Source: Leucoraja ocellata (Eukaryota). From it: a DNA stretch of 64,000 bases. The notes beneath the pieces are model-generated. The model saw only the letters and a list, made by a program, of their open reading frames with translations, was not told the DNA's origin and did no database searches. Location of the stretch: the NCBI GenBank assembly GCA_036785375.1, contig JAWMAR010001270.1:124001-188000 (forward strand). The letters are read 5' to 3'. Of this stretch, positions 9,723 to 34,982 are shown one piece after another. The first letter of the stretch is position 1. Every line of letters starts with the position of its first letter. The position numbers and the translations under genes are program-made.

Positions 9723-9729
9723 ATAGAGA

Positions 9730-11930: not shown

Positions 11931-12029
11931 ATGCAGATAAAAACCTAATTATCGGATGCGCAGTGGGTGTCTTGGCAGTTTTAATTTTGGCCATTATCTT
12001 GATAAGGCTCCAATTAAAGGCACAAAATG
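11931..12029 (+). pseudogene. Orphan TM exon 3 (DADKNLIIGCAVGVLAVLILAIILIRLQLKAQN)
   Basis: Paralog of TM1. The homologous acceptor reads TG and the GAA codon reads TAA. In-frame AGs at 11929-11930 and 11935-11936. Donor G|gtgaga. No V or C1 exon recognised upstream. Confidence 0.65.
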
Positions 12030-13244: not shown

Positions 13245-13373
13245 ACTAAAGATGATAGATTCTACGTTATATCATGTCGATTTGCAGTTACTCAACACCA
13301 ATCAGCAGTAACATTTAACCAGAAAGAGGAACATGTACCTTATGCAGATGGAAATGTTTTAAAGAAGGAGTGA
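13245..13373 (+). pseudogene. Orphan terminal exon with degenerate ITIM/ITSM (TKDDRFYVISC...HVPYADGNVLKKE*)
   Basis: Acceptor region homologous to 30006 and 2756. ISC aligns with LTY, and VPYADG aligns with TVYADV. Confidence 0.6.
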
Positions 13374-15171
13374 AGCTGGGAATCGAAGCTGTAGACTGTG
13401 AATAATTGCAGGCGGAAATATTGCTACTTTCTGATCATTGCAGCCAAGCTAATGAACTCCCATGGTAACAATCGTTGGAGCTGCAGGTCGTTTTCACCTG
13501 CATTGAGTCAATGCTTTGGTGTAAATGACCATCATCTAACAAGCATCCAACACTTTCTGAAAGCAGGGATGAAAGTGCCAGTTTGCATTTGGTGTATTTT
13601 AAAAATCGTGTTTGTTTATTTTACTTCTGTTCTCAAATGTGAATAATTTCGCTGGTGCTTTGTGAAGAAACTATGGCCACGTCCGTTCGTGATAACATGT
13701 CACTTAATGATGTCTGATTTAAAAAAAAATCCGCCGATTATTCAGTTGTGCAACCAATATATTTTCCCTTCATTAAATTCCATGCTTTTTCAATGCACCT
13801 GAGCCTTTGTCCTCTCATTTGTTTCGAAATACACTAACGTCAACACAAACCAGAGAAGGAAATCCGAAGAAACCCATCAACCAATCAAGTGCACTACCAT
13901 TGAATACACTTGTAATGAAATGGTATTAGTCAGTCATGTGATGATAGCCTGGCGGAGCAAAGCGCCTCAGTGAGGTCAGTGGCATAGCCACCTACAGTGG
14001 AACAGAAGATGTAAGTTCTGTCAGGTGCCAGTTCTGCACGGATGGTTCCATTTGCCCAGACATTACTGTTGGTAACTTCATGTGTTCCACGTAAAAAGCA
14101 AAGCAAATCAGTACGTGCATCAGCATGTAGTGACTGGAAGCACCAGCAGACCTTGGCGGACTGAGCACACACACGCGCGCATACACACACACCCTTCCCT
14201 TCTTACATATACAACCGCCGCCTTCTCGACATGACAATTTCACCCATCAACTGCATCCACCTATCACTGGATCGGTTTTGGCCCACCCCAGCTATCTTCC
14301 AGCTTAATCCACACTATTCTGAAGAAGGGTTCTAACCTGACACGTCGTCTGCCCATTCCCTCCACAGATGCTGCATCGCCTGCTGAGTTCCTCCAGCGCT
14401 TTGCTGTTTTTCTCATGATCCCAGCAATGACAGTCTCAAATATCTTAATGTGTAGTAACCGTCCATGCAGCTCCCTGCGGACTGTGTTCTGGATGCTGAA
14501 ACAGTGCGCCCACTTGTCACTGTATTCATCCTGTACGTCCCATTATGAACTCAATCAGATAAATAGATGGAAAACTAATGTCATTTAATCAAATACGATT
14601 GATTCGTCTTGGATGAATTATGATTTTCAACAGATCCTGATAATTAATTACGAAAAAATATATGGTGTCACAAGAGACTGAAGGTGCTGGAATCTTGAAC
14701 TGCAAGAAATCAGCAGGCAGGCAATATCTGTTGAGGGAAATGGAGAGACGACCTTGCGGATTGGATCCCGTCTTCAGACTGACCTTCAGAAATGTATGTC
14801 ACTTGGTCACTTAAATAGGTAGATTTCTGTTTACATTAAATCCATTGTGCTGTATTCAACTAAAGGTGTGAATTAAATCGTCCACACTGGATGGTGATGC
14901 AACTTAATAAATATCAAGACTGTGCACAAATTGCAAACTGTTTATGATTATTTCCACTGATGCACCTATGACATAGTGAAATAATGTGAATGCCAGAGTG
15001 TGCCACAGGCCATATGTATACTCTTGCTCTTGGGATAATGTGGCAATTTATTTGTGTTTGCCTATCCCTTCTCGCTTCTCAAAAGCGCGATTTCCCCTTA
15101 TCTGAAATTATAATCTACTGCTCTTGTGAATAGTTTAATAACATTAACTCTTGTGAATGAGTTTAACTTGT

Positions 15172-15305
15172 CATAAGGTCATAAGTGATAGGAATAGAAT
15201 TAGGCCATTCGTCCCATCAAGTCTACTCTGCCATTCAACCATGGGTGATCTATCTCTCCCTCCTATCTCCACTCTCCTGTCTTCTCCCCATAACCCCTGA
15301 CACCT
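15172..15305 (-). mobile_element. Short CR1 3' end
   Basis: cataaggtcataag...taggccattcg...ttctccccataaccc. Confidence 0.65.
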
Positions 15306-15639
15306 GAATTTCCATGAACTCGTGCCACCGACTCAAGCAGCGGGCCACATACCTGCAAATCTGGATAATTTATTTCAAAATCAAGTATCCACAAGATTGA
15401 CCAGGACAATTATCTGCAAAGTCTCTTCGCTAAGTACTATTCCTAATGACCACAGGAAATCGATTTCCCACAGTTTAGTAGCGAAGCATAAACCTCCGCA
15501 TAACCTACCAGATCTCCCATTACTAAACACTTTAACATCCCCATCAGAGTGGGGCTCAGTGCAAATTGGAGGAAGAGCACCGACTATTTCGCTTGGTAAG
15601 CTTCCCCTACAGTGGTATGAATATTGACCTCCAACTTCA

Positions 15640-16881
15640 AGTAACCCACCTCTCAACCAATACCAATATTGGTGGCCAGTGGGGGGGGGGGGGGGGGGGG
15701 CTTTCTGGAGCGCTAGTATGGTGTTGTGGTCTGAAGGGACTGGTTTCCAGAGGGCTAGTATGGACACAGTGGACCGAATGAATTCTTGGGCTGGCGGCTC
15801 AGTCACACATGCCTGTTGTGCTGGCAGCTCACTCACTCACGGCTGGTGGGCTGGCAGTTGACTCACTGCTATTCCTTGAAATTCCATTACAAGCAGGGTG
15901 CAAGGCCATCAAATTCAAGTGCAGTTTCATACCATTTCAAGCAGGGTGCAAGGCCACTAAAGACAGCAGTCGTCACCTCTCGTACATCTTGCAGAGACTG
16001 AGCCACGCCCACACTTCTGGGTTTTATAGTCCCTCCCACCCCCTCCCACCAGAAGGGGCGGGGCCTTCATGGCGTAATTAACAGGAGAGAGAATATGAAC
16101 ATTTTTTAAAACACTAATAATAACTCTTTTATTTTTCATCGATGGGAAAAATCCTTGGCACCTGATGCGTGGAGGGGTACTCTGAGTAAGATGTCCAAAG
16201 ATCACAGCCGTACATGGTAGCGTTGTTTCTAAAATCAATACAAAGCGTAAACGGGAAGTGGTCAAGATTAGACATGTATTATATTGAAGGCAAAGCAACT
16301 TTAATTGGGCAAGGCAACTTTAATTAGGCAAGGCAACTTTAATTAGGCAAGGCAGCTTTAATTAGACAAGGCAACTTTAATTATGCAACTTTAATTAGGC
16401 AAGGCAACTTTAATTATGCAACTTTAATTAGGCAAGGCAACTTTAATTAGGCAACACAGCTTTAGCATTTCCAAACCAAAGGCAGCACAGATTTAGCTTT
16501 TCCAAGCTATATTTTCAAACCACATTAAGGGCACTGACAGGTCAGTAAAACCACTCACAGTTTAGTAGACATGTGTTCAGTGTTATTTACAGCTCAGATT
16601 GAGAGACATTACCCTCTCGCGCCCCCATCTTGCAGAGACTGACTGAGGCACTCAACACTTCCGGGTTTTATAGTCCCTTCAGGAGAGAGAATCTCAACAT
16701 TTTAAAAACACTAATAACTCTTTTATTTTTAATCATGGGGAAAATCCTCTTATCCTGCACAGCGGAAGGGGACTCTAAGTAAGATGGCCAAAAATCACAG
16801 CCATCAGTGGCAGCGTTTTTTCTAAAAATCAATATATAGAACAACCGGAAGTGGTCAAGATCAGACTTTTAATAATATAGA
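15640..16881 (-). mobile_element. Non-autonomous Helitron-like element with duplicated 5' end; left boundary uncertain (copy ends ~58061)
   Basis: Minus strand starts A|TCTATATTATTAAAAGTCTGATCTTG, similar to the 5' end at 46679. About 15985-16285 is a diverged repeat of about 16626-16880. Confidence 0.55.
16292..16455 (+). repeat. Minisatellite, ~20-bp unit aaggcaactttaattaggc (shorter array at ~57502-57633)
   Basis: Direct tandem repeats without unique spacers. Confidence 0.9.
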
Positions 16882-17277
16882 TATATGTGTGTGTGTAAAT
16901 GTATGTTTTATATACACACACTGGACTATTTTCCCGTTTATTGTATTGCTCACAGTGTACTATCTTTACATATTCTGTTGTGCTGCTGGAATAAAGAATG
17001 TCGTTGTTCTATCTGGGACATATGACAATAAAACGCTCTTGGCGTGTTTTCTTCTGAGACTGGCCACCTAGCTGAAGAATTGGAAATTACGAGAAGCACG
17101 GATAGTGTTTTCGTCGGAACCTATGAAAGATAGGAAGGTATTGCTTTAACATCTAAGGTGTAGAGTTATGCTGGGCCAGCTTTTCACGCAGAAAGTGCCT
17201 AGAACGCATTACCAGGGATGCTGGAAGAAGAGAAGACAGCAGTTTTTAAAGAGTCTTTTCGATAGGCATATAAATAT

Positions 17278-17402
17278 GTACAAAGGAACTGCAAATGCTG
17301 GTTTAAACCGAAGATAGACACAAAAAGCTGGAGAACAGCGGGACAGGCAGCATCTCTGGAGAGATGGAATGGGTGACGTTTCGCGTCGAGACCCTTCTTC
17401 AG
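17278..17402 (-). mobile_element. Penelope-type terminal repeat (related pieces at 14318-14435 +, 18117-18203 -, 23940-24115)
   Basis: Minus strand CTGAAGAAGGGTCTCGACGCGAAACGTCACCC followed by the conserved gatgctgcctgtccc tail. Confidence 0.6.
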
Positions 17403-17876
17403 AAATATTGCAGGCATGGTGGGATGTGGATCATATGCAGATAGAGGAGATTAGTTTATCTTCGCATCATGTTCCGCGTAGACATACTAGGCCGAGAGAC
17501 CCATTGCAGTGTTTAACTGTTGTATGTTTTATAATCTATTTGCTTTCGGAGACCTGAGTTCGATTCTCACTACTTCATCTGCGAATTATAAATCTGCATA
17601 TTTAAATTAAATTATGTATATGCGTATACGCCGTCCTTGCTCTGCTCTTTTTTAGATGCCTCTTATTTGTTTCATTAGGACGAAGCGTATGCCCTTCCGA
17701 ATCAGATATCTTTTGGACTTCTGCTTGTAATTAGCAAACACGAATGTGTCCATGCGAGCTTCTGCAACGTTTCTAAAAAAAAGATGCATCGAAACTAAGT
17801 TTTTTCCATCGTCTACTGACTAACTAATCATCTACTGACTAACTAACTGACCACTGCATTTCTAGCTTGACAAAAT

Positions 17877-17949
17877 AGAAATAACACACAGCATGAAAAT
17901 AGAACTGTTCTCGTGAGTCTGCTGGCGACGTCATGGAAAGGCTTGCGGT
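17877..17949 (+). promoter_or_regulatory. Putative conserved upstream element of gene A (CRE-like / NFAT / RUNX motifs)
   Basis: CGACGTCA-TGGAAA-ggct-TGCGGT. About 30/40 nt identical without gaps to the core of 33827-33900 upstream of gene B. Confidence 0.45.
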
Positions 17950-18854
17950 CGAATGCTGTGCCTATCTGAAACAAACAAGTCACGGACGGCTCGCGTTATC
18001 ATCTTAGAAACTAAAGTGTAGAACAAGAAGTTTAATTTAAGACCATTGAGTAAAAGTCCGCTTCCGTCAATGAAACATTTCTAAGGTTGTACTGTAATCT
18101 TCATTATTTCGCAGGTAGACACAAAATGCTGGAGTAACACAGTGGGACAGGCAGCATCACTGGAGAGAAGGAATGGGTGACGTTTCGGGTTGAAACCCTT
18201 CTTTCCTTTATTGTTCTTTCCCTAATTATTTCGTGTTCGTTCTGGGAAAAAATAAATACGTGGTAAACTTCATCATGGCAATTAAATGGCTGATTTTTAA
18301 ATATAACCATATAATATAACTATATAACAAGTACAGCACGGAAACAGGCCATCTCGGCCCTTCTAGTCCGTGCCGAACATTTACTCTCACCTAGTCCCAT
18401 CTACCTGCACTCAGAACATAACCCTCCATTCATTTCCGTCCATATACCTGTTTCATCATTCTTGCCTGCTTGGAGTCCCGGGTATTTAATATGGTTGACG
18501 CGTTGTCACTTTTGCTCAGAAGAGCAGAGACGTGTGGTGCCTCTCCGGCATAGAGGAGCTGAAATATATCCGTGAGGGTTACTGGTCAGACTACCCCTGT
18601 GCACTTGACCTATGTGGGTGCGCTTAGTTCGTATTCCATACAACATTTGACAAGTTGTGATGATTCTATTGATAATAAGAAGATATCGCCTGTAATTAGA
18701 GGCAACTTCCTGGCATTAACTATAAAGTTCATAGGGGCCGCTCGAATGGATAAGGAGAATGCAGATTGACTGGCAATATGTCGCAATTGATGACCGTCGG
18801 AGATATGCATTTAGTGCATTTACATCTTCAGTCTACATCTAAATTCCAGTTTTG

Positions 18855-19152
18855 TTTAATTTAGTTTAGAGATGCAGCGCGAAAACTGGCCCTTCGGCCC
18901 ATTGGGTCCGTGCCGATAAGCGATCAACGCATATTAGCACAATCCTACCCACGCTAGGGACATTTTTTACATTTACCAAGCCATTTACCTACATGCCTGC
19001 ACGTCTTTGGAGTGTGGGAAGAAACCGGATAAAGAAAGCCCACGCGGTCACGGGGAGAACGTACAAACCCCGTACAGGCAGTCCCCGTAGTCGGGATCGA
19101 ACCCGGGTCCCCGGCGCTGCAAGTGCTGTTAGGCAGCAACTCTACCGCTGCG
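18855..19152 (-). mobile_element. tRNA-derived SINE, HE1/V-SINE-like (copy at ~60035-60332)
   Basis: Minus-strand B box GGTTCGATCCC, core acgttctccccgtgaccgcgtggg...cccacactccaaagacgt, and a LINE-like 3' tail. Confidence 0.8.
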
Positions 19153-19673
19153 ATCACTTGGAAACAAAGTTGTGGCAAGATCATTACTGGATAATGCTAG
19201 ATTGCAGGTACTTTGTAATCTGAAATTAATCACGAAATATTGTGAATTCTAGGCGTCGAGGACAATCTGTGGAGAAAGAGAAACAGTAAATATTTCTATA
19301 TTATAACAGAAATGATCAACTCGAGACGTTAGTTCTATTTCGCAATCTGACCTGTTGCAGGATTCCAGTCAATTCCACCAAATGGGAGAAAACAGTATTT
19401 TCTTGTTAATGGCAATCCAACACATCTTGTCGAAAGGAGAATAAATACGCAATCTAACCAATTATTCCCATCAGACATTGTTAATAATATTTGGATAACG
19501 CATCTGCGATGACGTCATCAACAATGTAAGGGTCTAACGTTATGGAAAACAACATTATGTTGCCCAAAGCTTTCCGCGTCTCCTGTTTACTAAATTAATC
19601 TAATTTAATGAAACTTTAAAAATATAGGAGCCATCTTGGAACCATTTAATCGAAGTTAAATTAATAATGCAAA

Positions 19674-20378
19674 CATGATTGAAGGTAGGCATGCAGGTGC
19701 AGCAGGCAGTAAAGAAAGCGAGTGGTATGTTGGCTTTCGTAGCAAAAGGATTTGAGTATAGGAGCAGGGAGGTTCTACTGCAGTTGAACAGGGTCTTGGT
19801 GAGACCACACCTGGAGTATTGCGTACAGTTTTGGTCTCCAAATCTGAGGAAGGACATTATTGCCATAGAGGGAGTGCAGAGAAGGTTCACCAGACTGATT
19901 CCTGGGATGTCAGGACTGTCTTATGAAGAAAGACTGGATAGACTTGGTTTATACTCTCTAGAATTTAGGAGATTGAGAGGGGATCTTATAGAAACTTACA
20001 AAATTCTTAAGGGGTTGGACAGGATAGATGCAGGAAGATTGTTCCCGATGTTGGGGAAGTCCAGGACAAGGGGTCACAGCTTAAGGATAAGGGGGAAATC
20101 CTTTACAACCGAGATGAGGAGAACTTTTTTTCACACAGATAGTGGTGAATCTCTGGTACTCTCTGCCACAGAGGGTAGTTGAGGCCAGTTCATTGGCTAT
20201 ATTTAAGAGGGAGTTAGATGTGGCCCTTGTGGCCAAGGGGATCAGAGGGTATGGAGAGAAGGCAGGTACGGGATACTGAGTTGGATGATCAGCCATGATC
20301 ATATTGAATGGCGGTGCAGGCTCGAAGGGCCGAATGGCCTACTCCTGCACCCAATTTCTATGTTTATATGTTTCTATG
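19674..20378 (+). mobile_element. 5'-truncated CR1 LINE (copy at ~60854-61547)
   Basis: [17 protein letters not shown]...RRLRGDLIETYKIL...TRGHSL and (tttctatg)n tail. Confidence 0.95.
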
Positions 20379-20833
20379 ATCTTTTTCAGTTTTCGCTTGC
20401 GGTATCACAATATTCTTTTCTATTAAACAATGGGAATATACCGATGCATTTCCTCAAAATGTGGCAAATAAAATTCTTCAAATCCATTTTGTAAGATTAT
20501 TATTGGTCCATTGTTGCAGAACAGCCCTTCGCTGACAGTAGCTTGCAAACATGCACAGAAATCCTTAATTTGTCAGATTTGCCGTGTACTGAGGTTTTCT
20601 CGAACTGCCGCTGGTTTCTTTGCACTGCTGACTTCACTAAAAAAGAAACAACGTGCCGCTTTAAATCTGAGTCCAGTCTTCATTATCTTCAAGACCAGCA
20701 TCACAAACCGGAATGTTCTTGTTGCAGCCCTTCGTTTGAACGGTTAATGTGGACAGACTTACACCCGAAATTACGCAATCTTTACATGGAAGTTCAAATA
20801 GAAGCCATTTACAGAAGCAGTTTTTTTAGCAAT

Positions 20834-21130
20834 AGTTTAGAGATACAGCGCGGAAACAGGCCCTTCGAGTCCGCGCCGACCAGCGATCACCCCGTACATT
20901 AGCACTATCCTGCACGCTAGGGACAATTTACAATCTTTACCGAAGCCAATCAACCTACGAACATGTACGTCTTTGGAATGTGGGCGGAAACCGGAGCGCC
21001 CAGAGAAAGCCCAAGCCAGTCATGGGACGAACGTACAAACTCCATACAGACAGCACCCGCAGTCGGGATCGAACCCAGGTCTCTGGCGCTGTAAGTGCAG
21101 CAACTCTACTACTGCGATACGGTCCTGCCC
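20834..21130 (-). mobile_element. tRNA-derived SINE, same family as 18855-19152 (copy at ~61797-62092)
   Basis: gtttagagatacagcgcggaaacaggccc...gggatcgaaccc...ggcgctgtaa. Confidence 0.8.
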
Positions 21131-22278
21131 GATTTCAGTAATTTAAAAAATATCCAGAGAATTACTGTGTATATTTGGAATATTATGTCCTCCCATTGAA
21201 CGGCACAAGGTCTCTAAGTGAGGCGCATCAAACATTTAAATTACACGAAAATTACTTAACCATTTGGCCTACAACAGGTTTCTGCTCGTGCAATTTAATG
21301 TGTGTTCTGAAGCCAAAATCATTGGTTTGTGCAGAGGAATGTGAGTATAACCACGATACGGGGAAAACATAAATAGTTCAAACCGCCTCGCTCACAACGT
21401 TGGCTTCTTGCCTGTAGTCCAAACTTTAAGTAATCCTTCATTTCTACGATGTTTAAAACAATACTTTGGAGGAAATTATAAGATTAACAGTTTGGTTTAA
21501 ATCTCCCTAATTTATATTGGCCCATTCGATTAATTTACAGCCCCTATTCTCCTGTGTTGTGTGGATGTCAACAGCATAAGTTGATTGCTCTACTGGGCAT
21601 TATCGGAAGAAAAAAACTAGATTTCATTCATACGTTAGCTGTCGCGGCTTGGCGCCAATTTTCTGCTGGACTCCCCATAGAATATTGCTGCAATGGTGTT
21701 TATGAAAATAGTAGAAATATTAGTTAACAAAAACCAGCATGGAGATTTGGTTTTGTAGGAATAGCAACCGGAGTTAGTGTTAAAAACGTCAGATGGAAAC
21801 ATAATCAATAGAAAGCTGCGGATGGCGATGGTGAGGGCTGAACAGGAAGAGACGAAAAGGGTGATTGTTGTTTGAATGTATATAATCGAAAGAGCGAAGG
21901 AGCACAACACAAATTGGGAAGGGAGGGAGATTCAAGGGAAGGTGGGTGTCTACGTGTGTGCATCTAAATATTCACAAGCACTCCTTACCTTATACGCGGA
22001 ACGATTTGTGACAATTAACTGAGTAGGCAGCTGATGCATATTTAATTCCGAGTAAAAATCTGGATGCTACGGGAGGAGGTTGTGAACATGTTTCAGGAAG
22101 TATTGGAAGGCTTTGTTACAATGGGAATGGGCCGAGCTATGACCTCTCCCGCCGCACGAGCCACAGTCGTGGGATATATTACGTCACGGTCACGTTTCAT
22201 ATATTTACTCATAATTTCCTTTTCCGCAGAGCAAGTTTTGAGTAAACTAACAACAAGTTGGCAATTTATTCTTGTAAT

Positions 22279-22333
22279 ATGTCGGTGAAAGTTAGAGTTT
22301 GGTCCATGGCTCTTCTGGTCATACTAACGCAGG
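22279..22333 (+). CDS. Gene A leader (signal peptide) exon, MSVKVRVWSMALLVILTQ
   Basis: ATG plus 18 codons with a hydrophobic core, ending in a phase-1 donor G|gtatag. Same length as the gene B leader. Confidence 0.85.
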
Positions 22334-25300
22334 GTATAGTTAAATTGTGTGCCATTTCTGGTCTAAGTATTATTTTTCGAAAATTCGGACCTGGTTTCGA
22401 GCTATTAGGTTCATCTATTAGGCGCTCGTGGGTTTATAGTTGTTTCGTGCTTTTCGACAGTTGGTTCCTGTTTTCTCTGTCCAGTATTTAAAAAAGTATC
22501 AATTGTTCTTGCTTTTTCCCCGACAGCTACCGAAGTCTATCCGACCAGAGTGTCCCAATTCCCTGCCATCTTGGACGTTGGCGGCGGTGAACATGCTATC
22601 ATGTATTGCACATTTCCAATATCGAAAGACACTATTGGCGTTAATTGGTGGAGGGACGGCATGAAGACATTCCTTGAACCGGACAGTAGAAAACAATTTA
22701 CGATAGATTCTGGAAGGGAAATATTTACTCTCCAACATGTGCGTGTCGCTGACTCCGGCCTGTATTACTGTCAAGTAAAGTTCCAGCATCAGGTTATCGG
22801 GAATGGAAGTGGCAGCCTGATCACCGTATTTGGTGAGTGTGTGTGTTAGGAAAATAAGCAATTTTCAGTTCTATGTCATTTGTAAAGTCTAGTCGCGAGG
22901 ATAATATGAAAAATCTCCTGTTGATAAATATCCGGTAATAACAATTTTAAATTACAGGGACCAGTAATTCAAAATAAAACAAAGCACAATGGACATAACC
23001 AGCAGGTCGAGTCGCACTTGTGGGACGCGTGGGTATTGAGGGTTATTCTGTTCATTGTACGATACTTTGCGAGACTCCTTTTCATTGCCGCTATGAATGG
23101 GCGCAGCCCATTCATTTAGCGGTCCCGAATTTTAAGCCAATCTCCCAGATGGATGTATCGCTAAGAACGGGTAACTGCTGAGATGGAAGGAATTCATTCT
23201 GAGGAGTGGTTAGAAATGTTTTGCGATGATATATTTAAATGATATTCCTGTTAGTTTGAGTGGCTGGAGTGTGATATCCAGGTTTCTCGTCACTAAGAAA
23301 AGAGAGTAGGAGCAATTTTAATACGTCGATGGTAGAGTCTGTCATGCCTCTATTCTACATCGACAGCTTTAGAACCTCATAAGACCAATGTGCTCCTGCA
23401 ACACAAGGACCTTGGTATTCCAACATGTGGGACTCATCGCTGCTGATTCCAAGCTACTTCAATGAAATCTTTTTTCTTTTTTTTGACATCGCTTGATACT
23501 AATTTTGTCAGGCATAACCTCAGTCTATTCAACCAATTTGGCACCGTACGGGGGAAAAAAGAAGTAAACAACATCTCAACTGAAATTATTTAAAGTCCGG
23601 GAATAAACAGTAACATTTATTTCATCATTAAAGATTATCCTGATTAAGTGAATTAAGTCAAGCTTTCTAAAGATTTGTAATAAACGGACAAAGCAACCCA
23701 ACATTCAACTCCCCGTCCAGTTAGACACCGACTGCAGCTCGTACGGAAGGAGTTCGCGTTAATAAATGCCAAATATAGGGCCTTTTACGTGCAGACCTAA
23801 CTGAGTAGAATCTGCACAGCGAGAAACAGAGCTTGTTCTTTTCCCTCGTTTGGCTTCTGCAAGCTATCATCATTAACGCCGATCTAACGTTGTCGATTCA
23901 CTGTCGCCAATTTAGCACAACAGATGGAACTGATTTGTATAGAGACACAAAATGCTGGAGTAACTCAGCGGGACAGGCAGCATCTCTGGGTAGGAGAAAT
24001 GAGTGACGTTTGGGGTCGATACCCTTCTTCAAACCTCGACCAGAAACGTCACCCATTCGTTATCCGAAGAGATGTTGCTGTTCGGTTTAAACCAGCTTTT
24101 GTAGTTCTTTCCTACATACTGACATAGAATAAGTGCGCTCGTAGATTGCTTGTAATAGAAACCACGGTGTTTTAATAAAAGCATTCAATGCGCGAGAAAG
24201 GTAGGTGTTCCAGCACTTGGTTCACATGCAGGTAAATGGTTGTGATCGGCATTTCAAACCCATATCTGGTTCTGGTTCTGGTTGATTACTGCGCAAACAC
24301 CTCATGTGGTTATCTCGCGCAGGTCGGAGTGAGTAGAGTAGAGTAGTGATTAAATGTTGAAGTGGGTGTTTTTGACCAGGGCGAGGAGATTTAGTTCATA
24401 TACTACTTAAAGTGCTAACGGGATTAAACATTAATCTTCATGTATAACCGCTTCCTGTCATCACACTATACAAATCTGTTATATTTCGATTATGATGGCT
24501 CCATTTCTTTTGCAACATATGAATGATCCGAACATGGCCACTTTTAAATAATCACGGCAGGCTTCTGGCAAAAACTTTCGCGCGATACCGGGGAACGTCC
24601 ATTCAGAACAGAGTTTATTTTGGAACTCCTTAAATTCTGTTGGCACTCCTTTAATTCACCCTCTTTGTATCTTGGTGGAGTTCGTCCGTGTGTCCGCTAG
24701 GAAAGGGAGTATAAATGAACGACAAACTGGGAAGTTTAAATATTAAATAATTTGGTCTTGACAAATACGACTCGGTGGCGAGATAAAATGTAAATATTTG
24801 CAATGAAATGGAAAGCGAACACCGATACATTTTTTTTTTTCTTTGCTTAAGATCCCCCAACTCCCTTGACAATTGTTCCTGCTGAAGGACTTGGATCTCC
24901 ACGGAAACTTGTGTGCAAAACTGGCGCCTTTTATCCGGAGAAATTAGAAATATTCTGGCTAAGAAATAACGAGGAAATTCGCACTGGAATCGAAACTGTG
25001 AAAAAACCGAGCGAAGAAGGATTGTTTGTGGCTACTAGTTCTTTGGAAATAACGCAGCCTGGGGAGGGCAAAGATATTTACACCTGTCTGGTATCACATG
25101 TCTCCCTGAAGGTGGCGGCCAGTTTCAGTTACACCCTGGGCCAAGGTAAGACTGGAGCCAGTTACACATGATATTGGGGCGGTAGATCAAATTCGATCAG
25201 ATTAATAACTGGACAGCTTTCCGTACACGGAGCGAAGGGTAAATGTGGCTCGCATTTATTCGCATGAAAGCAACACTTGCATGCTGTTTAAAATGAATTG

Positions 25301-28300
25301 CACTCCATCAGTTCTTGTAAGGAAATCCGTGTGAGATGAATTGACAAACTGAATTGATATAATGATTGTAATGAGCAAAAACGTCCTGGGATATGCATAT
25401 CTACTGTCTGGTGAAATATATGAATATAAAGCCTAAATTCCGTTTAACGTCAGTAAGCAGCTTTCCACACATGGGCACAATACAACGGCAATTGTTTGTC
25501 CTGTGGATTCCATTACTAACTTCCATCTGGTGCCTCATGATATACCTTCCAAACTTTCCGATGTGGGTATTAAAATGCACCTACGAAATGATTTGCCTTG
25601 TTGACTTCCGTTTGTATATTTGTTCTGAAATGTATAAATTCTTTACAGTTTCTTAATTTTCAGTTGCTTCATCAGGAATTGATCGCAAACAGATGATCGT
25701 ATATGCAGTAGGTGGATCAGTAATTTTAATTCTGATTATAATCGTGATAAGACTCAGCTTAAAGATATGGCACGGTAAGAATCTTGATAATAATCATACA
25801 ATAATCATTTCTATGGTTAAAACGAGAATGGATATGTCAATGGTGTTTGCTCACAGAGGAGAAAAGGAAACGTAGATGGACATGTAAAGAAATTTCTGAA
25901 GCCGGTTTTGATATATGTGTGTGATAATATGATGGATCTTCAAATTCAATTATTTCAGCTTGGAATTTGATGTATTCAATTATCACCTATGCATATATTT
26001 TCAAATATAAGGAATTTTTCAAATCCAGTGTGATTGACAATTAATGCAATGGAAGATTACGATTTTGAGGAAAAAATAACTGTGGCTTTCTGTGGCAATG
26101 AGCAAAACCAAACATCTCCTTATGTTTACATTACATTGCTGTTTCGACATGGACACGGTTCCTCATAAACCATTACAATTTTAAAGTTTCAGTTAAAATT
26201 TAGGTCCAGTGGGCGCAACATCGCGAAAGAGTACAAGATGCGTTGTATTGTTATAATTGTGACAATTGGTGCTGCTGAGCACCATCGGATATTTAAAAAT
26301 GCAATCGTTCTTATTTTCTGCAGTAAATTTGATTAAAATGAGAAGAATAATGTCAAAATCTACAGATCAATCTTTACAATTCAAGTTGTTTTTATGTAAC
26401 TCTTATTTCATTCCTCTAGGCCATAACGTAACCTCTGTAGGAATACGTCCGAACGGGGAGCCGGTAGGTGAAATGTCTCCTCTTGTTTCAAAATAGGGAT
26501 TATTCGTAGCAGAAATATTAATCAGTTTTATTCTATAGTATCGTGGAATACTCTAGGGCAGGATGAAACCATTATTTATTTTTCAGGTTACGTCAAGTAT
26601 ACATCCACTAATAATTTGAAAATTCCTGTTGTATCTGCTTCAACATCTTTTGACAATTCCATGCCAGATCATATCCTAATTTATTCTAAAGTGAAAGGTG
26701 ATGTTTAGGATGAAAATATGAGCCTTTATTAGTTCTGGTGGCAGGAATACTTAAAAATATACGGTACGGTAATTAAAATGAAAATGAAAAGAACCTTTGT
26801 CGAGAATTTAATTTGCTTTCTTGAGCCGTTCTTTAACGTGTTAATTGCAGTTTTGGCTTCGATCCTTAACGAAGGGCCATTTAACCGGATATCGTGGATA
26901 GGGGAGAACCAGTGGATGTGGTGTATCTGGACTTCCAGAAGGCTTTCGACAAGGTCCCACATAAGAGATTAGTATACAAACTTAAAGTACGCGGCATTGG
27001 GGGTTCAGTATTGATGTGGATAGAGAACTGGCTGGCAAACAGAAAGCAAAGAGTAGGAGTAAACGGGTCCTTTTCACAATGGCGGGCAGTGACTAGTGGG
27101 GTACCGCAAGGCTCAGTGCTGGGACCCCAGCTATTTACAATATATATTAATGATCTGGATGAGGGAATTGAAGGCAATATCTCCAAGTTTGCGGATGACA
27201 CTAAGCTGGAGGGCAGTGTTAGCTGTGAGGAGGTAGCTAGGAGACTGCAAGGTGACTTGGATAGGCTGGGTAAGTGGGCAAATGTTTTGCAGATGCAGTA
27301 TAATGTGGATAAATGTGAGGTTATCCGTTTTGGTGGCAAAAACAGGAAAGCAGACTATTATCTAAATGGTGGCCGACTAGGAAAAGGGGAGATGCAGCGA
27401 GACCTGGGTGTCATGGTACACCAGTTATTGAAAGTAGGCATGCAGGTGCAGCAGGCAGTGAAGAAAGCGAATGGTATGTTAGCTTTCATAGCAAAAGGAT
27501 TTGAGTATAGGAGCAGGGAGGTTCTACTGCAGTTGTACAGGGTCTTGGTGAGACCACACCTGGAGTATTGCGTACAGTTTTGGACTCCAAATCTGAGGAA
27601 GGACATTATTGCCATAGAGGGAGTGCAGAGAATGTTCACCAGACTGTCAGGACTGTCTTATGAAGAAAGACTGGATAGACTTGGTTTATGCTCTCTAGAA
27701 TTTAGGAGATTGAGAGGGGATCTTATAGAAACTTACAAAATTATTAAGGGGTTGGACAGGCTAGATGCAGGAAGATTGCTCCCGATGTTGGGGAAGTCCA
27801 GGACAAGGGGTCACAGCTTTAAAACCGAGATGAGAAGAACTTTTTTTCACACAGAGAGTGGTGAATCTCTGGAACTCTCTGCCGCAGAGGGTAGCCGAGG
27901 CCAGTTCATTGGCTATATTTAAGAGGGAGTTAGATGTGGCCCTTGTGGCTAAGGGGATCAGAGGGTATGGAGAGAAGGCAGGCACGGGATACTGAGTTGG
28001 ATGATCAGCCATGATCATATTGAATGGCGGTGCAGGCTCGAAGGGCCGAATGGCCTACTCCTGCACCTAATTTCTATGTTTCTATGTTTCTATGTTTCTA
28101 TATGGCCTACACGGCATCGAAACTGCTTCTCACAAAATTACTATTTTGTGCTGGCTGCTAAATGGAATCCCACAAATGCATCTTCCACTCTGCAATACTT
28201 AGAAGAAGAAATCTCCAAAATCTGCAAAAGACTGATATTCGTATTGGCACTGGTTAATTATTGTCATGTACACCGAGATTCAATTATAAACTTTATTTTG

Positions 28301-30140
28301 CGTGCAATCCGGAAAATGGATACCATGTATGGGTACAATCATACCATACCCAAGTGCAAAAAGGGAAATGACACAGGATGCAAAATATTGTGTTACAGCT
28401 AAAGAGAAATTCCACATTTTAAAAGCGCAAGGACCAGAACGCGGTAAATCACAGATCAGGATTGCACCATTAACTTGCTTGACGCCTGTTTAGTAACTTG
28501 ATAACATCGAGTATAAAGCCGTTTTTAAATCTTACACAAGGCGATTTCAAGCTATTCGTATTCTGTCCGCCGAGGGAAGAGGAGAGAATGACGGAAGCTT
28601 GTTTACGTGGTTGGCTGGGCTGCAATCACAGGTTCCTGCGTTTCTTAAGGTCCTGGGCAAAGCTGTCGCTAAACCAATTTGGGATTCATCCCCATATAAT
28701 TATTTCGACAGTGCAGCTGTGGAATTTGGGAAGAGACTTTGGAGACCGTCCAACTTTCCTTGGTCCTCTGGGAAGGTCGAGGCAATGGTGTGCTTTCATG
28801 GTGTTAGAATTAATGTGGTTGGACCAGTGCAAATTATTGGTGATGTTTATCGCCAGGAAACTCGACCAACACCATTATCCACCCCTTTCCTTGAAATGAC
28901 ATAGTTGGTAATATCATTGAAAGCAAGTGAAATGTTAATCTATTCCTCTATATCCCGCGTGCATCGATTTTCAGCCCCAGTTACAGTTCTAGTGCCATAT
29001 CAGCTATATAAGCCTGGTCACCCGCAGTATTAAATGTACTTTTCTAATAGGTGAGACAAGCACCAATTGAACATACCGCTGCCTATGCTACACTGAATTT
29101 AAGCGAGAGCAAAGGATTTTCAAATGGTCTACAAGAAGAACAACATGTCGCCTATTCACAGGTAATGCTCTTGGACAGCGTAATTTAGATATGGAATGAG
29201 CATTGTTCCAAATGTAGTTGCTTTTTCCAAACTGCAGGGAAAATATAAGTGCACAATGGCAAATCTTCATTTAAGTAAAACCTATCACCCGCTGCTCATC
29301 AGAGCATAAATATAATTTTCCTTTCCTTATTCGGGTTTAAATTCAAATGTAAATTGTATGTGAAGAAATAAAGGGTGGGAAGCTAGGAACACACAAACCT
29401 ACCCAGTTCTATAATCAGGGCGAAATTAAATACAAATGCAAGTCAATGGCCTGGGAAAAGAGAGTAAACAAGCCGTTCAAATTATCCACCGAATAGGGGA
29501 CTCGTGTCAAAAACTGGGGACGCAGAGCCATAGGAAGTAGTACCAACTTATATTCTATTGCATTTCGGTGCCACTGATGAAGCCGTGAGCCGCGGTGTCT
29601 ATTGGAGAGGTACCGGTAGCTTCAGTCTGCGAACCACCTCTTGGGCTCGACAGGCAAAATGGATTCCCGCCAATCCCACAAATACACTTTAAAAGGGGCT
29701 TCGAATTATGCCAAATATTTAATACTGCGGATACAATTTTGAGCAATCACCAATTCTCCTAACTTTCGTAATTACATCGAAGTTGACATAAACGAAAAAG
29801 AAAATAATTCTTTTGTGGGACAAGAACAGCTCCTCGCGTTTAAACTCAATATCAAGCAGAAAGGTATAGCCAAAAATAAATCTGCAAATCAATACCATTG
29901 TAAAAATAACAACTGATGGGTTGCATAAAATATTATTTTAAAGCAGTATGCTCAAATTCGCCACTGAATGATTGCCTAATCACCGATCATTAATTACTTT
30001 CGCAGACTAAAAGAGGTGGACATGACAAGCTGACCTACGCAACTGTGCAACATGACAACCCCAAGAAAACGTCAGTATCCAAACAGAACAAATACACGGT
30101 GTACGCAGATGTGAATACTTCAAAAAAGACGTGTAACTGA
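22279..30140 (+). CDS. Gene A: inhibitory-type IgSF receptor, L-V(J)-C1-TM-cyt with ITIM+ITSM, 314 aa. join(22279..22333,22527..22832,24852..25145,25664..25774,26420..26463,30006..30140)
   Basis: Six exons with canonical AG/GT ends and intron phases 1,1,1,1,0. Total 945 nt, open to a TGA at 30138-30140. Domain motifs are listed in the exon entries. Confidence 0.85.
22527..22832 (+). CDS. Gene A V-type Ig exon with germline J-like G strand
   Basis: Acceptor cccgacag|, donor G|gtgagt. Motifs VSQFP...IMYC...VNWWR...FTLQHVRVADSGLYYC...IGNGSGSLITVF. Confidence 0.93.
24852..25145 (+). CDS. Gene A C1-set Ig exon
   Basis: Poly-T tract and taag| acceptor, donor G|gtaaga. C1 hallmarks LVCKTGAFYP, W, and YTCLVSHVSL. 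Confidence 0.93.
25664..25774 (+). CDS. Gene A transmembrane exon (VASSGIDRKQMIVYAVGGSVILILIIIVIRLSLKIWH)
   Basis: ttttcag| acceptor, G|gtaaga donor, uncharged hydrophobic stretch. Homologous to the other TM exons. Confidence 0.88.
26420..26463 (+). CDS. Gene A short cytoplasmic linker exon (GHNVTSVGIRPNGEP)
   Basis: tttcattcctctag| acceptor and CCG|gtaggt donor. Its 44 nt convert phase 1 to phase 0, exactly what is needed to read the terminal exon in the ITIM frame. Confidence 0.7.
26890..28102 (+). mobile_element. CR1 LINE RT fragment in the last intron of gene A
   Basis: 342-aa ORF with YLDFQKAFDKVPH, GVPQGSVLGP and FADD; (tttctatg)n tail. Confidence 0.96.
30006..30140 (+). CDS. Gene A terminal exon with ITIM (LTYATV, 30030-30047) and ITSM (TVYADV, 30096-30113)
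   Basis: ctaat branch-like motif and tactttcgcag| acceptor. Translates to TKRGGHDKLTYATVQHDNPKKTSVSKQNKYTVYADVNTSKKTCN*. Not in the ORF track because it has no ATG. Confidence 0.87.
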   Translation, partial: TKRGGHDKLTYATVQHDNPKKTSVSKQNKYTVYADVNTSKKTCN

Positions 30141-30880
30141 CAATCCAAATAAGGTTTAGATGGTAGACTATTTGTTTGAGTATAAGCCCAAAGTTTAACT
30201 TGTTGCGTCCAGAATTTATAGTAATAATTGTTAGAGGGTAGAAAGCAAGTGACCATTTTCATCTTCGATGAAAGACAGGCTCACTGTTGGAATTTGTCTA
30301 TTGCAGATTAAAATAAGAATATACAAAGTAGAAGCAGCAATATGTTATTCATAACTATTAACTTTCATTCCTGGTCCGTATCGAACTTCTCCAAATGCAA
30401 ACGCTTCAAGTTATGCTTCTTGGATACCATATATTTGCATTTACATAGCGATCCTGCTGCGAAATGTTTGTCGAATGTGGTATTTTATTTCAAAGTGGGA
30501 ATTTGAAGATAGGGACAGAGATGCTAGCTACACAGAGATTTTGATAGGAAGGAAACGTTACAGCAGCTGAGTGAAAAAAATGGTCAAATGGTAGGTTCAA
30601 TGAAGATTGGGCGAGAGGGATTGGGGGTGGGGGGAAAGTATCTATAGCTTGGGACTTGCCTTAAATTAGTACTGAGATGGAATATCATTCCACACCAAAT
30701 TTCTTAGACAATAATACCTTTTGTGCAATTATCACACCATTTTGCTGGATATGGGTCAACGGACTGTATGGTACATGCTTGTAAATGAGTAAAACAAATG
30801 TTCTTCCTAAAGCACTGTTGTTTCTGGGATAGGGCGACTGGTTACAAATAAAGCCTTCTGAAAGCCCAGATATAAGACAT

Positions 30881-30989
30881 CCACTGGTTCTCCCTTATCC
30901 ACTCTACTAGTTACTCCACTTATCCGCTCCACTAGTTACACCCTTATCCACTCCACTCCACTAGTTCTCCCTTATCGACTCTACTAGTT
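30881..30989 (+). repeat. Short imperfect tandem repeat (unit approx. ccactagttctcccttatccact)
   Basis: About four diverged units. Confidence 0.7.
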
Positions 30990-31438
30990 TATGGAGGGAG
31001 GGAGTGGCTGAGGGTAGGGGAAAGGAGAGGGAGGAAGAGGTGAGGGAGGGGGGTTGGGAGAGGAAGAGGAGAGAGAAAAGAGGGTGAAGAGAAGGCAGAG
31101 GGAATGCTGGGAGATGAGGGGGGAGGGAGGAGGATAGGGGTAGGAAGAGAGATGGCGAGGTAATGGAGGAGGGGAGGGGGAAGAATGAGGAGGGGCGGGA
31201 GGGGTGAGGGGAGGAAGCAGAGGGGGGTTGGTGGAGACTGGGGAGAGGGTGGATAATGGAGGAGGGGAATAGGAGACTGAAGAGGGAGAGTAGATGCGTA
31301 AACATTGATCTTATTTTTTACGTTATTGCCATTTTAAACTTTAAAAGCATCCGCCGCGCCTGCGCAGTTGGGAGCTATGGGTGAGTGAAGGAATATCGCG
31401 ATGGGGGAACGGGGCCCAACGAGTCCCACTTGGTCTAG
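30990..31438 (+). mobile_element. 3' part of the same Helitron-like family as 4216-5354
   Basis: Ends GGGGCCCAACGAGTCCC-acttggt-CTAG|T. Reverse complement matches about 4216-4320. Confidence 0.65.
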
Positions 31439-31969
31439 TTGACTTTGAAATCCAATATCAGCAGATCTGGTGACAGGTATAAGGGAAATGCAAGTTTCCA
31501 AAGTTTGGATGATGGTCACCGATGAGCTCATTAAAAAAACGGGGAAGGCTCTTGCACGGGGCTCTTCGGTTGCAACCAGCATGATGATGAACGACTTTGA
31601 AAAGTAGAGGGTATCTGATGGTAAGTAAAAATAAGCCCTGATTTTTTTAATCAGCCCATAACGCTTCAGAAAAACAGCGTCACTCTTCAGCTGTTCTTTC
31701 ACGAAGGCCCTGTAATAACACATTAATTGTTTGTGAACCTCATTCCATAATATGTTTGTGAAAATTGTTTAGTGCCACTGGATCCTGGCCCAGATCTGTC
31801 TGTGCACCAGTCTCCCCACGGTAAACAAAGTCACGCACAGGTTTTCCTCCATTTAGGGTATAGCATCCTGCAGCCACCCATGTTTGAGTCAATGGGTATG
31901 TGCATGTGGTGGATACAAACTTTAATTTGGACCTGTACCGTACAGACCTATGCATATGTCAATAAATTC

Positions 31970-32845
31970 AATAGTCAATAGTCAATAGTCTATTTAATTG
32001 TCATTTGGACCCCTGGAGGTCCAAATGAAATGCCGTTTCTGCAGCCATACATTACACACAAATAGACCCCAGACACAACATAATTACATTTTACATAAAC
32101 ATCCATCACATAGCTGTGATGGGAGGCCAAAAAAGCTTATCTCTCCACTGCACTCTACCCCCCCCCCCCCCCCCATGTCAGAGTCAAAGTCAAAGCCCCC
32201 GGCTGGCGATGGCGATTGTCCCCCGGCCATTAAAGCCACGCCGGGTGGTGCGAGGTCGCACACCGGGTCTTGGTGTTAAAGACCCCGGTGTGCGCTCGCA
32301 GAGTCCCGCGGCCATTCCAAGCCGCGCGGGGCAGTGATGTTAGGCCCCGCTCCAGGAGCTCTTCGACCCCGCAACTCGGGCGGGAGAAGTCGCCGTTGCA
32401 GGAGCCCTGAAAAGCGGTCTCGCTCCAGGGAGCCGCGGGCTCCCGGTGCCGCCGTCCGCAGACCCGCAATAGCAGCCTCCGCATCAGCAGCAGCAGCGGC
32501 AGCAGCAGCAGCGCTCCTCCACCGCTCCACCCGCTCCGGTCTCGGCCAGCTCCGCGACAGCGACGGTGAGTCGTAGCACCAGAGTCCCCGGCTTCTTCCT
32601 GTTGGAGGCCGCTCCTCGTTGCGGCCCCAACGACAACTGAGACCCGACGAGAAAAAGTCGGGTCTCCAGTGCAGGGAGAGATTCAAAAGTCCCCCCCCCC
32701 CCCCCCCTCCCACACCAACCCCGCCCCCCCACACACACACCCCAACATAAAATAACAAAAACTACATAAAAACACAGACAAAAAATAATAAAAACGCGGA
32801 CGGCTGCAGAGGCCGCTGCTGACCAGAGTCGCGCCGCCTACCGGA
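31970..32845. mobile_element. Unclassified GC-rich interspersed repeat with a (caatagt)n end and a CAG tract
   Basis: Abrupt compositional change and a short tandem tail typical of a non-LTR 3' end. Family not recognised. Confidence 0.45.
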
Positions 32846-33199
32846 TTCTACCAAATTCTACTTGACTCTATACATCACGAATGTTGTAATAATCTACATT
32901 TTGCAAACGAATAGGGAAATTAATAGTTCTCCTATAACCTTTCATGAGACATGGGAAATAGAAACTGAGACAAAACGATGTAAAAATAGGAAATCAAAAC
33001 GGTTGGATAGATGAACAGGTCAGACTGCAGGCTGGAGGGAAAAACGTTTAATATTTCAGACGAGGGATCCCTGATCAGAACTGTGAAATAGAGAAAGGTG
33101 TTAGCCTACTGAATATCAAGATTTTGAAGAGGATGATGGGTGGAATAAAGATAATTCGCTAATAAAATCATGATTAGATTTGATTATACCATGGCCGTG

Positions 33200-33573
33200 T
33201 AGAAAAATAGAACATAGGTGCAGGAGTAGGCCATTCGGCCCTTCGAACCTGCACCGCCATTCAACATGATCATGGTTGATCATCCAACTTAGTATCCCGT
33301 ACCTGCCTTCTCTCCATACCCCCTGATCCATTTAACAACAAGGGCAACATCTAACTCCCTCTGAAATATAGCCAATGAACTTGGCCTCAACTACCTTCTG
33401 TGGCAGAGAATTCCACAGATTCACCACTCTCTGTGTGAAAAATGTTTTTCTCATCTCGGTCGTAAAAGACTTCCCCCTTATCCTTAAACTATGACCCCTT
33501 GTTCTGGACTTCCCCAACATCGGGAACAATCTTCCTGCATCTAGCCTGTCCAACCCCTTAAGAATTTTGTAAG
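33200..33573 (-). mobile_element. CR1 3' fragment
   Basis: Minus-strand ORF TYKILKGLDRLDAGRLFP...FFTQRVVNLWNSLP. Confidence 0.9.
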
Positions 33574-33826
33574 TTGGTGCTAATTTGATTCTACCTCCGG
33601 GACAGAAGTGGAATGAAGAAACTAGAATTATGAGGTTCATAGACAGGGGAGATAGTCAAAAATCTTTTGTCAAATGGTAGGGGAGTCTAAAACTAGAAGG
33701 TGTATGTTTAAAACAAAAATTGATATATTTGGTGAGTACACGGAGTAATCTGCCTGGATGTTGTTGTCTTATGCTGCACGTCTCCGTTTTCCCTTTAAGC
33801 GAATGTATCTGCAGCTCGAGTTAATA

Positions 33827-33900
33827 AGAAATTCACAAATAGCCGAGACTAGAATTGCGCTCGCGAACTTGCTGATGACGTCGTGGAAACACTTTGTGGT
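33827..33900 (+). promoter_or_regulatory. Putative conserved upstream element of gene B (CRE-like / NFAT / RUNX motifs)
   Basis: TGACGTCG-TGGAAA-cactt-TGTGGT; paralogous to 17877-17949. Confidence 0.45.
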
Positions 33901-34009
33901 GAAAAGCAAAATGTCGCCTTCTTACGTTACAGATCAGAACGGCGATTTGAGCAATTTATGCAATAGCTTATTTCGGCGTGACAAATGTATGTAAAGTTGC
34001 TCCGAAAAG

Positions 34010-34860: not shown

Positions 34861-34982
34861 ATGTTCTCAATCTCCTCTCTGTTCTCTGGCCAGAAATAAA
34901 ATGAGAATATATACTTCAACATTTTTTCCTGGAATTAATTTTTCAGTTATGATGAGAGACTGGGAAGGCTGTCTGTCGCATA

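What the first reader, a model, noticed from the sequence alone, without database searches (positions are those of the whole stretch)
22527..25145. Non-rearranging VJ-C1 ectodomain with an unusually compact V domain
Seen: the V exon carries its own J-like G strand (GSGSLITV in A, GTGSQLIV in B) with no RSS, and splices in phase 1 to one C1-set exon. Only 53 residues lie between the two cysteines in A, A' and B, so the C'/C'' (CDR2) region looks largely missing. An N-glycosylation sequon (GNGS/GNGT) sits in the G strand of all three. Established: C1 domains are restricted to few families (Ig, TCR, MHC, B2M, tapasin, SIRP, some B7), and germline VJ-C1 genes are the proposed form of the antigen-receptor ancestor. 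NKp30 has a comparable GNGT G strand. Inference: the family may inform antigen-receptor origins, and its short V parallels the CDR2-less VNAR.
Basis: partly seen in the sequence, partly recalled or inferred. Interest (0 to 1): 0.75.

Follow-up and report, generated by a model that had tools for sequence, protein, structure and literature searches.

The report
Shark-and-ray compact-V paired receptor family
These genes encode antibody-like cell-surface proteins that do not rearrange, belong to a gene family found across sharks, rays and chimaeras, and likely act as inhibitory (with activating siblings) immune receptors whose unusually small binding domain is predicted to fold like the shark single-domain antibody; they look like relatives, not ancestors, of antigen receptors.

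Summary
Three V exons have 53 residues between the cysteines, an in-exon J-like G strand and no adjacent RSS; domain 2 is C1-set. Relatives occur in 15 named cartilaginous fishes, chimaera included, mostly on one long contig per species; many carry ITIM tails, about nine a transmembrane arginine and short tail, the layout of a paired-receptor family. A confident model lacks C'' and nearly all of C'; its best matches are VNARs, tied with TCR V-alpha and NCAM I-set domains. The sequon's Asn occupies the J-motif Phe/Trp position (0 of 83 keep F/W), so Fv-type pairing is unlikely, and the register differs from NKp30. The 53-residue form looks derived from 58-residue relatives, twice. Relatives are not on the MHC chromosome in catshark or sawfish. 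Splicing, expression, ligand and orthology to SIRP or PRARP are unshown. Ten literature searches found no description; key papers were unavailable. Verdict: new variant of a known kind.

The parts
22279..22333 (+). Gene A leader exon (18 codons + 1 nt, phase 1)
22527..22832 (+). Gene A compact VJ-type exon: 53 residues between cysteines, GxG bulge, sequon Asn at the J Phe/Trp position
24852..25145 (+). Gene A C1-set exon
   Evidence: (46.7 bits)
25664..25774 (+). Gene A transmembrane exon, uncharged helix
26420..26463 (+). Gene A cytoplasmic exon 1 (phase 1 to 0 linker)
29051..29161 (+). Gene A cytoplasmic exon 2 with two tyrosines (AAYATL, VAYSQT)
   Evidence: (54 bits to family profile)
30006..30140 (+). 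Gene A last coding exon with ITIM (LTYATV) and ITSM (TVYADV), 22 residues apart, then stop
   Evidence: (58.7 bits); motif definitions from PMC12151841
37577..37631 (+). Gene B leader exon
37847..38143 (+). Gene B compact VJ-type exon (54% identical to A), 53 residues between cysteines
39336..39632 (+). Gene B C1-set exon
   Evidence: (36.7 bits)
41600..41707 (+). Gene B transmembrane exon (TM1); no cytoplasmic exon found after it
42922..43023 (+). Second transmembrane-type exon (TM2) with an Arg in place of the usual Cys; no V or C1 exon of its own found
44058..44168 (+). Degenerate copy of the last exon, open but without tyrosines
53134..53232 (+). Third transmembrane-type exon (TM3), orphan
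54443..54592 (+). Second degenerate copy of the last exon
63246..63300 (+). Gene A' leader exon, identical to A
63493..63798 (+). Gene A' V exon, 86% protein identity to A; rest of the gene lies beyond the window
390..13373 (+). First-copy counterparts of TM1 (390-497), TM2 (about 1705-1806), degenerate last exon (2756-2866), TM3 (11931-12029), degenerate last exon (13245-13373)
1..64000 (.). Tandem duplication with period about 41.2 kb (1-23034 matches 41211-64000 at 96-99.5%)

Best explanation
Gene A encodes a leader, a compact non-rearranging VJ domain, one C1 domain, a transmembrane helix and a tail with an ITIM and an ITSM, and it likely works as an inhibitory member of a cartilaginous-fish paired immune-receptor family that would bind its ligand with one unpaired, VNAR-like V domain. 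Shown by sequence and tools: exon anatomy, C1-set identity, tail motifs, family membership and breadth, Asn at the J Phe/Trp position. Predicted: loss of C'' and most of C', VNAR-like fold, spliced product. Inferred from known ITIM/ITSM receptors (PD-1, SIRP): ligand binding leads to tyrosine phosphorylation, docking of the tandem SH2 domains of SHP-1/SHP-2 and damping of leukocyte activation. Inferred: siblings with a transmembrane Arg and short tail pair with an ITAM adaptor and activate; a glycan on the G strand plus the missing C' strand prevents Fv-type V-V pairing. Gene B has the same ectodomain but no tyrosine tail in the window and is likely tailless, a decoy or decaying.
For: Intact 351-codon frame over 7 exons with canonical splice sites. 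Tail exons match family profiles at 54-59 bits. 37 of 48 family tails of 40 residues or more (of 91 C1-bearing proteins, isoforms not merged) hold an ITIM or ITSM, against mean 5.1 and maximum 12 in 500 shuffles. About 9 of the 91 have a transmembrane Arg and short tail on inspection, among them catshark, sevengill shark and chimaera proteins. 33 of 34 hits and 45 of 47 hits are named cartilaginous-fish proteins, with one recurring contig length per species. Model pLDDT 91.9 with strands A, A', B, C, D, E, F, bulged G and one bridge for C'. The 14 top rows of the second-look alignment are all VNARs, Z 14.4-14.8, rmsd 2.0-2.3, 93-97 aligned. Asn aligns ungapped with J Phe/Trp of light and heavy chains; 61 of 83 parsed V domains have Asn there, 58 a sequon, none F or W (6 of 89 unparsed). 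ESM feature search puts SIRP-alpha clusters first, 0.97.
Against: No RNA support for splicing or expression, no ligand, no cell type. VNAR, TCR V-alpha and NCAM I-set matches are within 1 Z unit, and Pfam does not separate V from I. Many family models are automated and include isoforms and fused models, so counts overstate independence. The Arg class rests on a rough pattern plus inspection; the window's own TM2 Arg is a different position and could be a single point change in an orphan exon. Monomeric state is inferred, not modelled; UrIg2 V dimerises through its A and G strands in a non-Fv way (PMC12227049).
Confidence: 0.72

Rival explanations
1. The family is the cartilaginous-fish branch of an already named lineage, SIRP or PRARP, with a shortened V; mechanism as above but membership already known.
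For: RefSeq names many relatives SIRP-alpha-like; ESM features rank SIRP-alpha first; SIRP-alpha aligns over the whole V plus C1 (105.7 bits summed). SIRP and PRARP are listed as joined-VJ genes in PMC11599192. From recall only: PRARP has V-C1 and ITIM/ITSM outside birds.
Against: Only 4 of 91 models have two C1 domains, two of them apparently fused gene models. Light chains score as well over V plus C1 (70.9-72.2 bits in one stretch), and the C1-weighted profile ranks UrIg2, Ig and MHC class II above SIRP-alpha (scores summed over domains). No bony-vertebrate relative scored in the profile search, which needs shared 5-residue words.
Confidence: 0.3
2. One reading: a relic close to the non-rearranging VJ-C1 gene that the RAG transposon invaded, its short V sharing ancestry with VNAR.
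For: Leader, VJ and C1 exons in phase 1 like a light or TCR chain; best single-stretch sequence matches are light chains; best single-domain V match and best folds are VNARs; family predates the chimaera-elasmobranch split.
Against: J Phe/Trp absent in 83 of 83. 53-residue V appears in two separate clades among 57-59-residue lineages, with different deletions. Catshark and sawfish members lie on contigs of 198.8 and 54.0 Mb, while the MHC chromosome gene lists end at 163.4 and 19.8 Mb. Identity to VNAR only 20-28%. UrIg/UrIg2 are better-placed candidates (PMC12227049).
Confidence: 0.12
3. Domain 1 is an I-set domain, and the protein is an adhesion-type I-C1 receptor with an inhibitory tail.
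For: I-set scores at or above V-set in A and B; NCAM2 Ig1 Z 14.3 against 14.8 for VNAR; Robo and contactin head the sequence searches.
Against: Those heads are sums over many domains; the best single-domain hit is a VNAR (48.3 bits). GxG bulge, Gln-x-Pro A strand and long FG hairpin are V-frame marks; in 6 of 8 full-length relatives V-set beats I-set.
Confidence: 0.08
4. B7H6-like or tapasin-like V-C1 ligand or chaperone rather than a signalling receptor.
For: RefSeq names several relatives B7H6-like or tapasin-related.
Against: Names vary at random among close paralogues; conserved ITIM/ITSM tails; J-like G strand.
Confidence: 0.04
5. Germline-joined immunoglobulin light-chain genes.
For: L-VJ-C1 layout; such genes exist in cartilaginous fish (PMC12227049).
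Against: Transmembrane and tail exons follow C1; short V; no FGxG; no octamer within 400 bases upstream of any of 3 leaders.
Confidence: 0.01

Closest known systems
SIRP family (SIRP-alpha and activating SIRP-beta)
   Same: Joined VJ plus C1 ectodomain, tyrosine-motif inhibitory tail, clustered genes with charged-transmembrane siblings (pairing recalled; VJ status PMC11599192); nearest by ESM features.
   Different: Usually one C1, not two; compact V; Arg near the outer end of the helix (SIRP-beta uses Lys, recalled); orthology and CD47 binding untested.
PRARP and tetrapod VJ-C1 genes
   Same: Non-rearranging VJ-C1 genes (PMC10751288 passages); ITIM/ITSM tail (recalled).
   Different: Primary papers not held, no sequence compared; here a large multigene family with a short V.
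VNAR (IgNAR variable domain)
   Same: Loss of the C'/C'' region; top structural match; likely unpaired.
   Different: VNAR rearranges and sits on an antibody; identity 20-28%; this V is germline-joined and carries a G-strand sequon.
NKp30 / NCR3
   Same: Single-exon VJ domain, G-strand sequon, Arg in the helix of some relatives.
   Different: NKp30 has 68 residues between cysteines (counted), Asn inside the GxG, no C1; NCR3 is MHC-linked in sawfish, this family is not.
UrIg / UrIg2
   Same: Elasmobranch non-rearranging VJ followed by C1; UrIg2 heads the C1-weighted search (three domains summed).
   Different: Three to eleven C1 domains, disulfide-linked dimers, MHC or AgRC linkage (PMC12227049); here one C1 and an inhibitory tail.
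CD79b and PD-1
   Same: CD79b is a compact V among the top fold hits (ranks 2, 6, 8); PD-1 shares the ITIM plus ITSM tail.
   Different: Both have a single Ig domain and no C1; CD79 carries an ITAM (recalled).

Membership tests
C1-set domain (domain 2) | Pfam C1-set above cut-off and best | tested here: met
   46.7 and 36.7 bits, cut-off 21; 8 of 8 relatives 37.9-60.1
Joined-VJ V domain | V frame with A' strand and GxG bulge in one exon | tested here: met
   GxG invariant in at least 90% of 59 rows
Joined-VJ V domain | C' and C'' strands (CDR2) | tested here: not met
   model has one bridge at residue 48 and no C''; prediction, not a solved structure
Joined-VJ V domain | Phe/Trp before GxG (FGxGT consensus, PMC11599192) | tested here: not met
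   0 of 83 parsed domains; Asn in 61
I-set domain | Profile and fold closer to I-set than V-set | tested here: inconclusive
   Pfam scores within 1 bit in A; Z 14.3 versus 14.8
Rearranging Ig/TCR | RSS at the V 3' end, separate J | tested here: not met
Germline-joined Ig light chain | Ends after C1; octamer promoter | tested here: not met
   transmembrane and tail exons; no octamer in 3 of 3 upstream regions
SIRP | V-C1-C1 ectodomain | tested here: not met
   one C1 in A and B; two in 4 of 91 relatives
SIRP | ITIM-type inhibitory tail | tested here: met
SIRP | Orthology by tree and synteny | not tested
   no SIRP sequence or flanking gene available; similarity ranks mixed
SIRP | CD47 binding | not testable with these tools
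   -
PRARP | Orthology to chicken/reptile/amphibian PRARP | not tested
   paper not held; architecture recalled only
NKp30/NCR3 | Single full-length V, no C1 | tested here: not met
NKp30/NCR3 and UrIg | Location on the MHC chromosome | tested here: not met
   indirect: contig lengths of catshark and sawfish relatives exceed the MHC chromosome lists; assumes the same assemblies
UrIg2 | Location in the antigen-receptor complex | tested here: inconclusive
   catshark AgRC on chromosome 17 (listed genes to 133.5 Mb) and an unplaced scaffold, stingray on chromosome 26; lengths not given, a different chromosome is likely
UrIg/UrIg2 | Three or more C1 domains | tested here: not met
Paired immune-receptor family | Clustered paralogues with ITIM tails and with charged helix plus short tail | tested here: met
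   (sequence level)
Paired immune-receptor family | SHP recruitment, adaptor association, leukocyte expression | not testable with these tools
   RNA lay uninformative

The most novel reading that the evidence does not exclude
An undescribed paired-receptor cluster, older than the chimaera-elasmobranch split, is the main germline NK/myeloid receptor system of cartilaginous fishes, and its glycan-capped single-domain VJ on a C1 stalk descends from the same pre-RAG receptor as VNAR, Ig and TCR: a living model of a membrane-bound, unpaired antigen-receptor precursor.
Probability: 0.12. Interest if true: 0.85.

Novelty: new variant of a known kind. Interest (0 to 1): 0.5.

Why it matters
Large germline inhibitory/activating receptor families of cartilaginous fishes are poorly charted (own knowledge). 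This one is built from antigen-receptor-type parts, spans chimaera, sharks and rays, and is scattered under misleading automatic names (SIRP-, B7H6-, light-chain-, TCR-beta-, tapasin-like). It offers a second, apparently independent route to a CDR2-less V domain and a testable device, a glycan at the J Phe/Trp position, for keeping a V domain unpaired. Placing it by synteny and trees would test whether VJ-C1 inhibitory receptors and antigen receptors share a proto-MHC origin.

Tried and rejected
RNA: no RNA holder listed. Four RNA runs of a related label were laid on 22200-41800 at 85% likeness; repeats took nearly all reads, the bin with leader and V of A had summed depth 0 to 0.25, and no exon joint was among the rows shown: uninformative. 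First fold on 3 sequences failed (pLDDT 38) and was not used. Search with the V exon for longer proteins found nothing. An exon candidate at 26587-26708 with an ITIM-like word was dropped: no family homology. Positive selection between A and A' V exons rejected: pN 0.061, pS 0.083; the exon is more divergent than flanks (6.5% versus 2.5%) at silent sites too, which fits exchange with another paralogue. No V or C1 exon found for TM2 and TM3 and no linker exon after TM1-TM3; N gaps could hide them. SIRP is absent from the shown rows of the fold searches, which excludes nothing. The tree is the quick one, midpoint-rooted, without outgroups, on 81 rows with both domains. No whole genome was held, so flanking genes and paralogon could not be read; cluster members could not be listed. 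No complex was predicted: a pass would mostly reflect likeness to Fab. Literature: nine answered searches plus one on VNAR listed no paper on this family; seven look-ups were not held, among them the VJC1, PRARP, UrIg and shark NCR3 papers, which may describe it. Term searches in PMC3964593 (one supplement) and PMC10529500 (text and one supplement) found nothing. Earlier scan findings: none.

Full report
Observation. The window is vertebrate DNA rich in LINE fragments with a 41.2 kb tandem duplication at 96-99.5% identity. It holds three V-like exons: A (22527-22832), B (37847-38143) and A' (63493-63798). Each has 53 residues between its two cysteines, a GxG motif and an N-G-S/T sequon before a phase-1 donor. 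Five RSS-like sites occur in the window, none at a V exon's 3' end. The next exons of A and B are C1-set (46.7 and 36.7 bits).

The gene is longer than reported. Tails of relatives aligned to the window located a transmembrane exon and three cytoplasmic exons, giving gene A an intact 351-codon frame from 22279 to 30140 with canonical splice sites. The last exon carries LTYATV and TVYADV, which fit the ITIM and ITSM definitions given in PMC12151841 (passages read), 22 residues apart. Gene B has leader, V, C1 and a transmembrane exon, but no tyrosine tail was found; downstream lie two more helix exons and two decayed last exons without V or C1 partners. Splicing is predicted; the RNA lay was swamped by repeats and shows neither joints nor expression.

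Family. A profile of the three V exons recovered full-length V-C1-TM-tail relatives. Two named searches returned 33 of 34 and 45 of 47 hits from 15 cartilaginous fishes, chimaera included; the other rows were an unnamed C1 fragment nearly identical to B and two weak unrelated hits. Within a species nearly all members share one contig length, which points to one cluster. Automatic names are inconsistent (SIRP-, B7H6-, light-chain-, TCR-beta-, MHC II-, tapasin-like). In a quick tree A is sister to an expanded stingray/devil-ray clade, so the window is likely from a skate or ray (inference). Of 91 C1-bearing proteins (isoforms not merged), 39 match an ITIM, a few spuriously, and about 9 have an Arg near the outer end of the helix and a short tail. 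ITIM/ITSM words occur in 37 of 48 long tails against 5.1 in shuffles. This is the layout of a paired-receptor family.

The compact V. Inter-cysteine spans in 78 parsed domains are 53 (33), 55 (3), 56 (1), 57 (5), 58 (34), 59 (2), so shortness is family-wide. The 53-residue form occurs in an elasmobranch clade (27 of 28 rows, with A and B) and separately in a chimaera clade of 5 with a different deletion, amid 57-59-residue lineages: further shortening looks derived, though the tree has no outgroup. A model from 59 sequences (pLDDT 91.9) shows A, A', B, C, D, E, F, a bulged G, a single bridge for C' and no C''. Foldseek ranks VNAR, CD79b, TCR alpha and PD-1 first. The wide search gives a skate VNAR Z 14.8 (rmsd 2.1, 96 aligned) and NCAM2 Ig1 Z 14.3 (2.0, 93), a tie; in the second look the top 14 rows are VNARs, with TCR V-alpha and NCAM within 1 Z. 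Pfam does not separate V from I for the window exons. The domain is best called a V frame with an I-set-like edge, as VNAR is; CD79b shows that compact joined-VJ domains are not unique.

The sequon. The family profile aligns without gaps to light- and heavy-chain J segments with Asn opposite Phe or Trp. Of 83 parsed domains 61 have Asn there, 58 as a sequon, none Phe or Trp. That aromatic residue is part of the V-V interface in antibodies and TCRs (own knowledge), so a glycan there, with loss of C', should prevent Fv-type pairing (inference).

Linkage. Catshark and sawfish relatives lie on contigs of 198.8 and 54.0 Mb; the MHC chromosome gene lists in the supplement of PMC10751288 end at 163.4 and 19.8 Mb. 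The family is therefore probably not MHC-linked, assuming the same assemblies. The antigen-receptor complex test is inconclusive, and other paralogons were not testable.

Mechanism. Most likely (0.72): a germline receptor binds a self or pathogen ligand through a single V domain, its ITIM and ITSM are phosphorylated and recruit SHP-1/2, and leukocyte activation is damped, while Arg-helix siblings signal through an ITAM adaptor. Anatomy and motifs are shown; fold and splicing are predicted; signalling, monomeric state and cell type are inferred. Rival memberships overlap this mechanism: SIRP or PRARP orthology (0.3) is open, since ESM features favour SIRP-alpha while sequence profiles rank light chains and UrIg2 as high.

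Literature. Seen: PMC10751288 (passages; supplement term searches and parts 1, 15, 19), PMC12227049 (abstract, text parts 1-3, most of the discussion, part 1 of table S1), PMC11599192 (passages, discussion), PMC12151841 and PMC11999971 (passages), PMC3964593 (abstract start, supplement term search), PMC10529500 (term searches). They establish non-rearranging VJ and VJ-C1 genes as a known kind and UrIg/UrIg2 as the leading precursor candidates; none of what I read describes this family. Ten searches listed no such paper, but the VJC1, PRARP, UrIg and shark NCR3 papers were not held, so prior description cannot be excluded. PRARP's architecture is recalled, not read.

Verdict. Real, and richer than reported: a compact-VJ-C1 paired-receptor family of cartilaginous fishes. 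New variant of a known kind; interest 0.5. The antigen-receptor-ancestor reading is not excluded but is weakened (0.12).

Noticed in passing
window 1-23034 versus 41211-64000: 41.2 kb tandem duplication at 96-99.5% identity with N gaps (5355-5582, 46694-46967, 49973-50100); may be a real recent duplication or unmerged haplotypes.
   Followed up: partly
window 41600-54592 and 390-13373: Three helix exons and two decayed last exons follow gene B with no V or C1 of their own; alternative 3' cassettes or remains of deleted genes.
   Followed up: partly
window 22334-22832 versus 63301-63798: Intron 1 (5.7%) and V exon (6.5%) differ more between copies than flanks (2.0-2.5%), silent sites included; suggests exchange with another paralogue. 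Replacements cluster in the BC and DE loops.
   Followed up: partly
proteins P0158, P0162, P0171: Two devil-ray proteins join an A-clade ectodomain to a B-type helix bearing Arg, and one horn-shark model joins a 58-residue V to a C1 of the 53-residue clade: exon shuffling within the cluster or chimeric models.
   Followed up: no
proteins P0053, P0172, P0186, P0080, P0084, P0104: A shared helix type with Arg at the outer end and Asp/Glu-His at the inner end, from catshark, sevengill shark and chimaera: candidate ancient activating form.
   Followed up: partly
window about 22181 and 63150: A CRE-like ACGTCA word about 97 bases upstream of the A and A' start codons; absent before B.
   Followed up: no
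window 19679-20378, 26885-28094, 33200-33575, 60858-61557 and others: Reverse-transcriptase-bearing LINE fragments (CR1-like by recall) and short interspersed repeats, heavily represented in RNA runs.
   Followed up: no
proteins P0008, P0027, P0040, P0081, P0100: Unnamed multi-V receptors with J-like G strands, 51-62-residue spans and ITIM tails scored next below the family; possible distant relatives.
   Followed up: no
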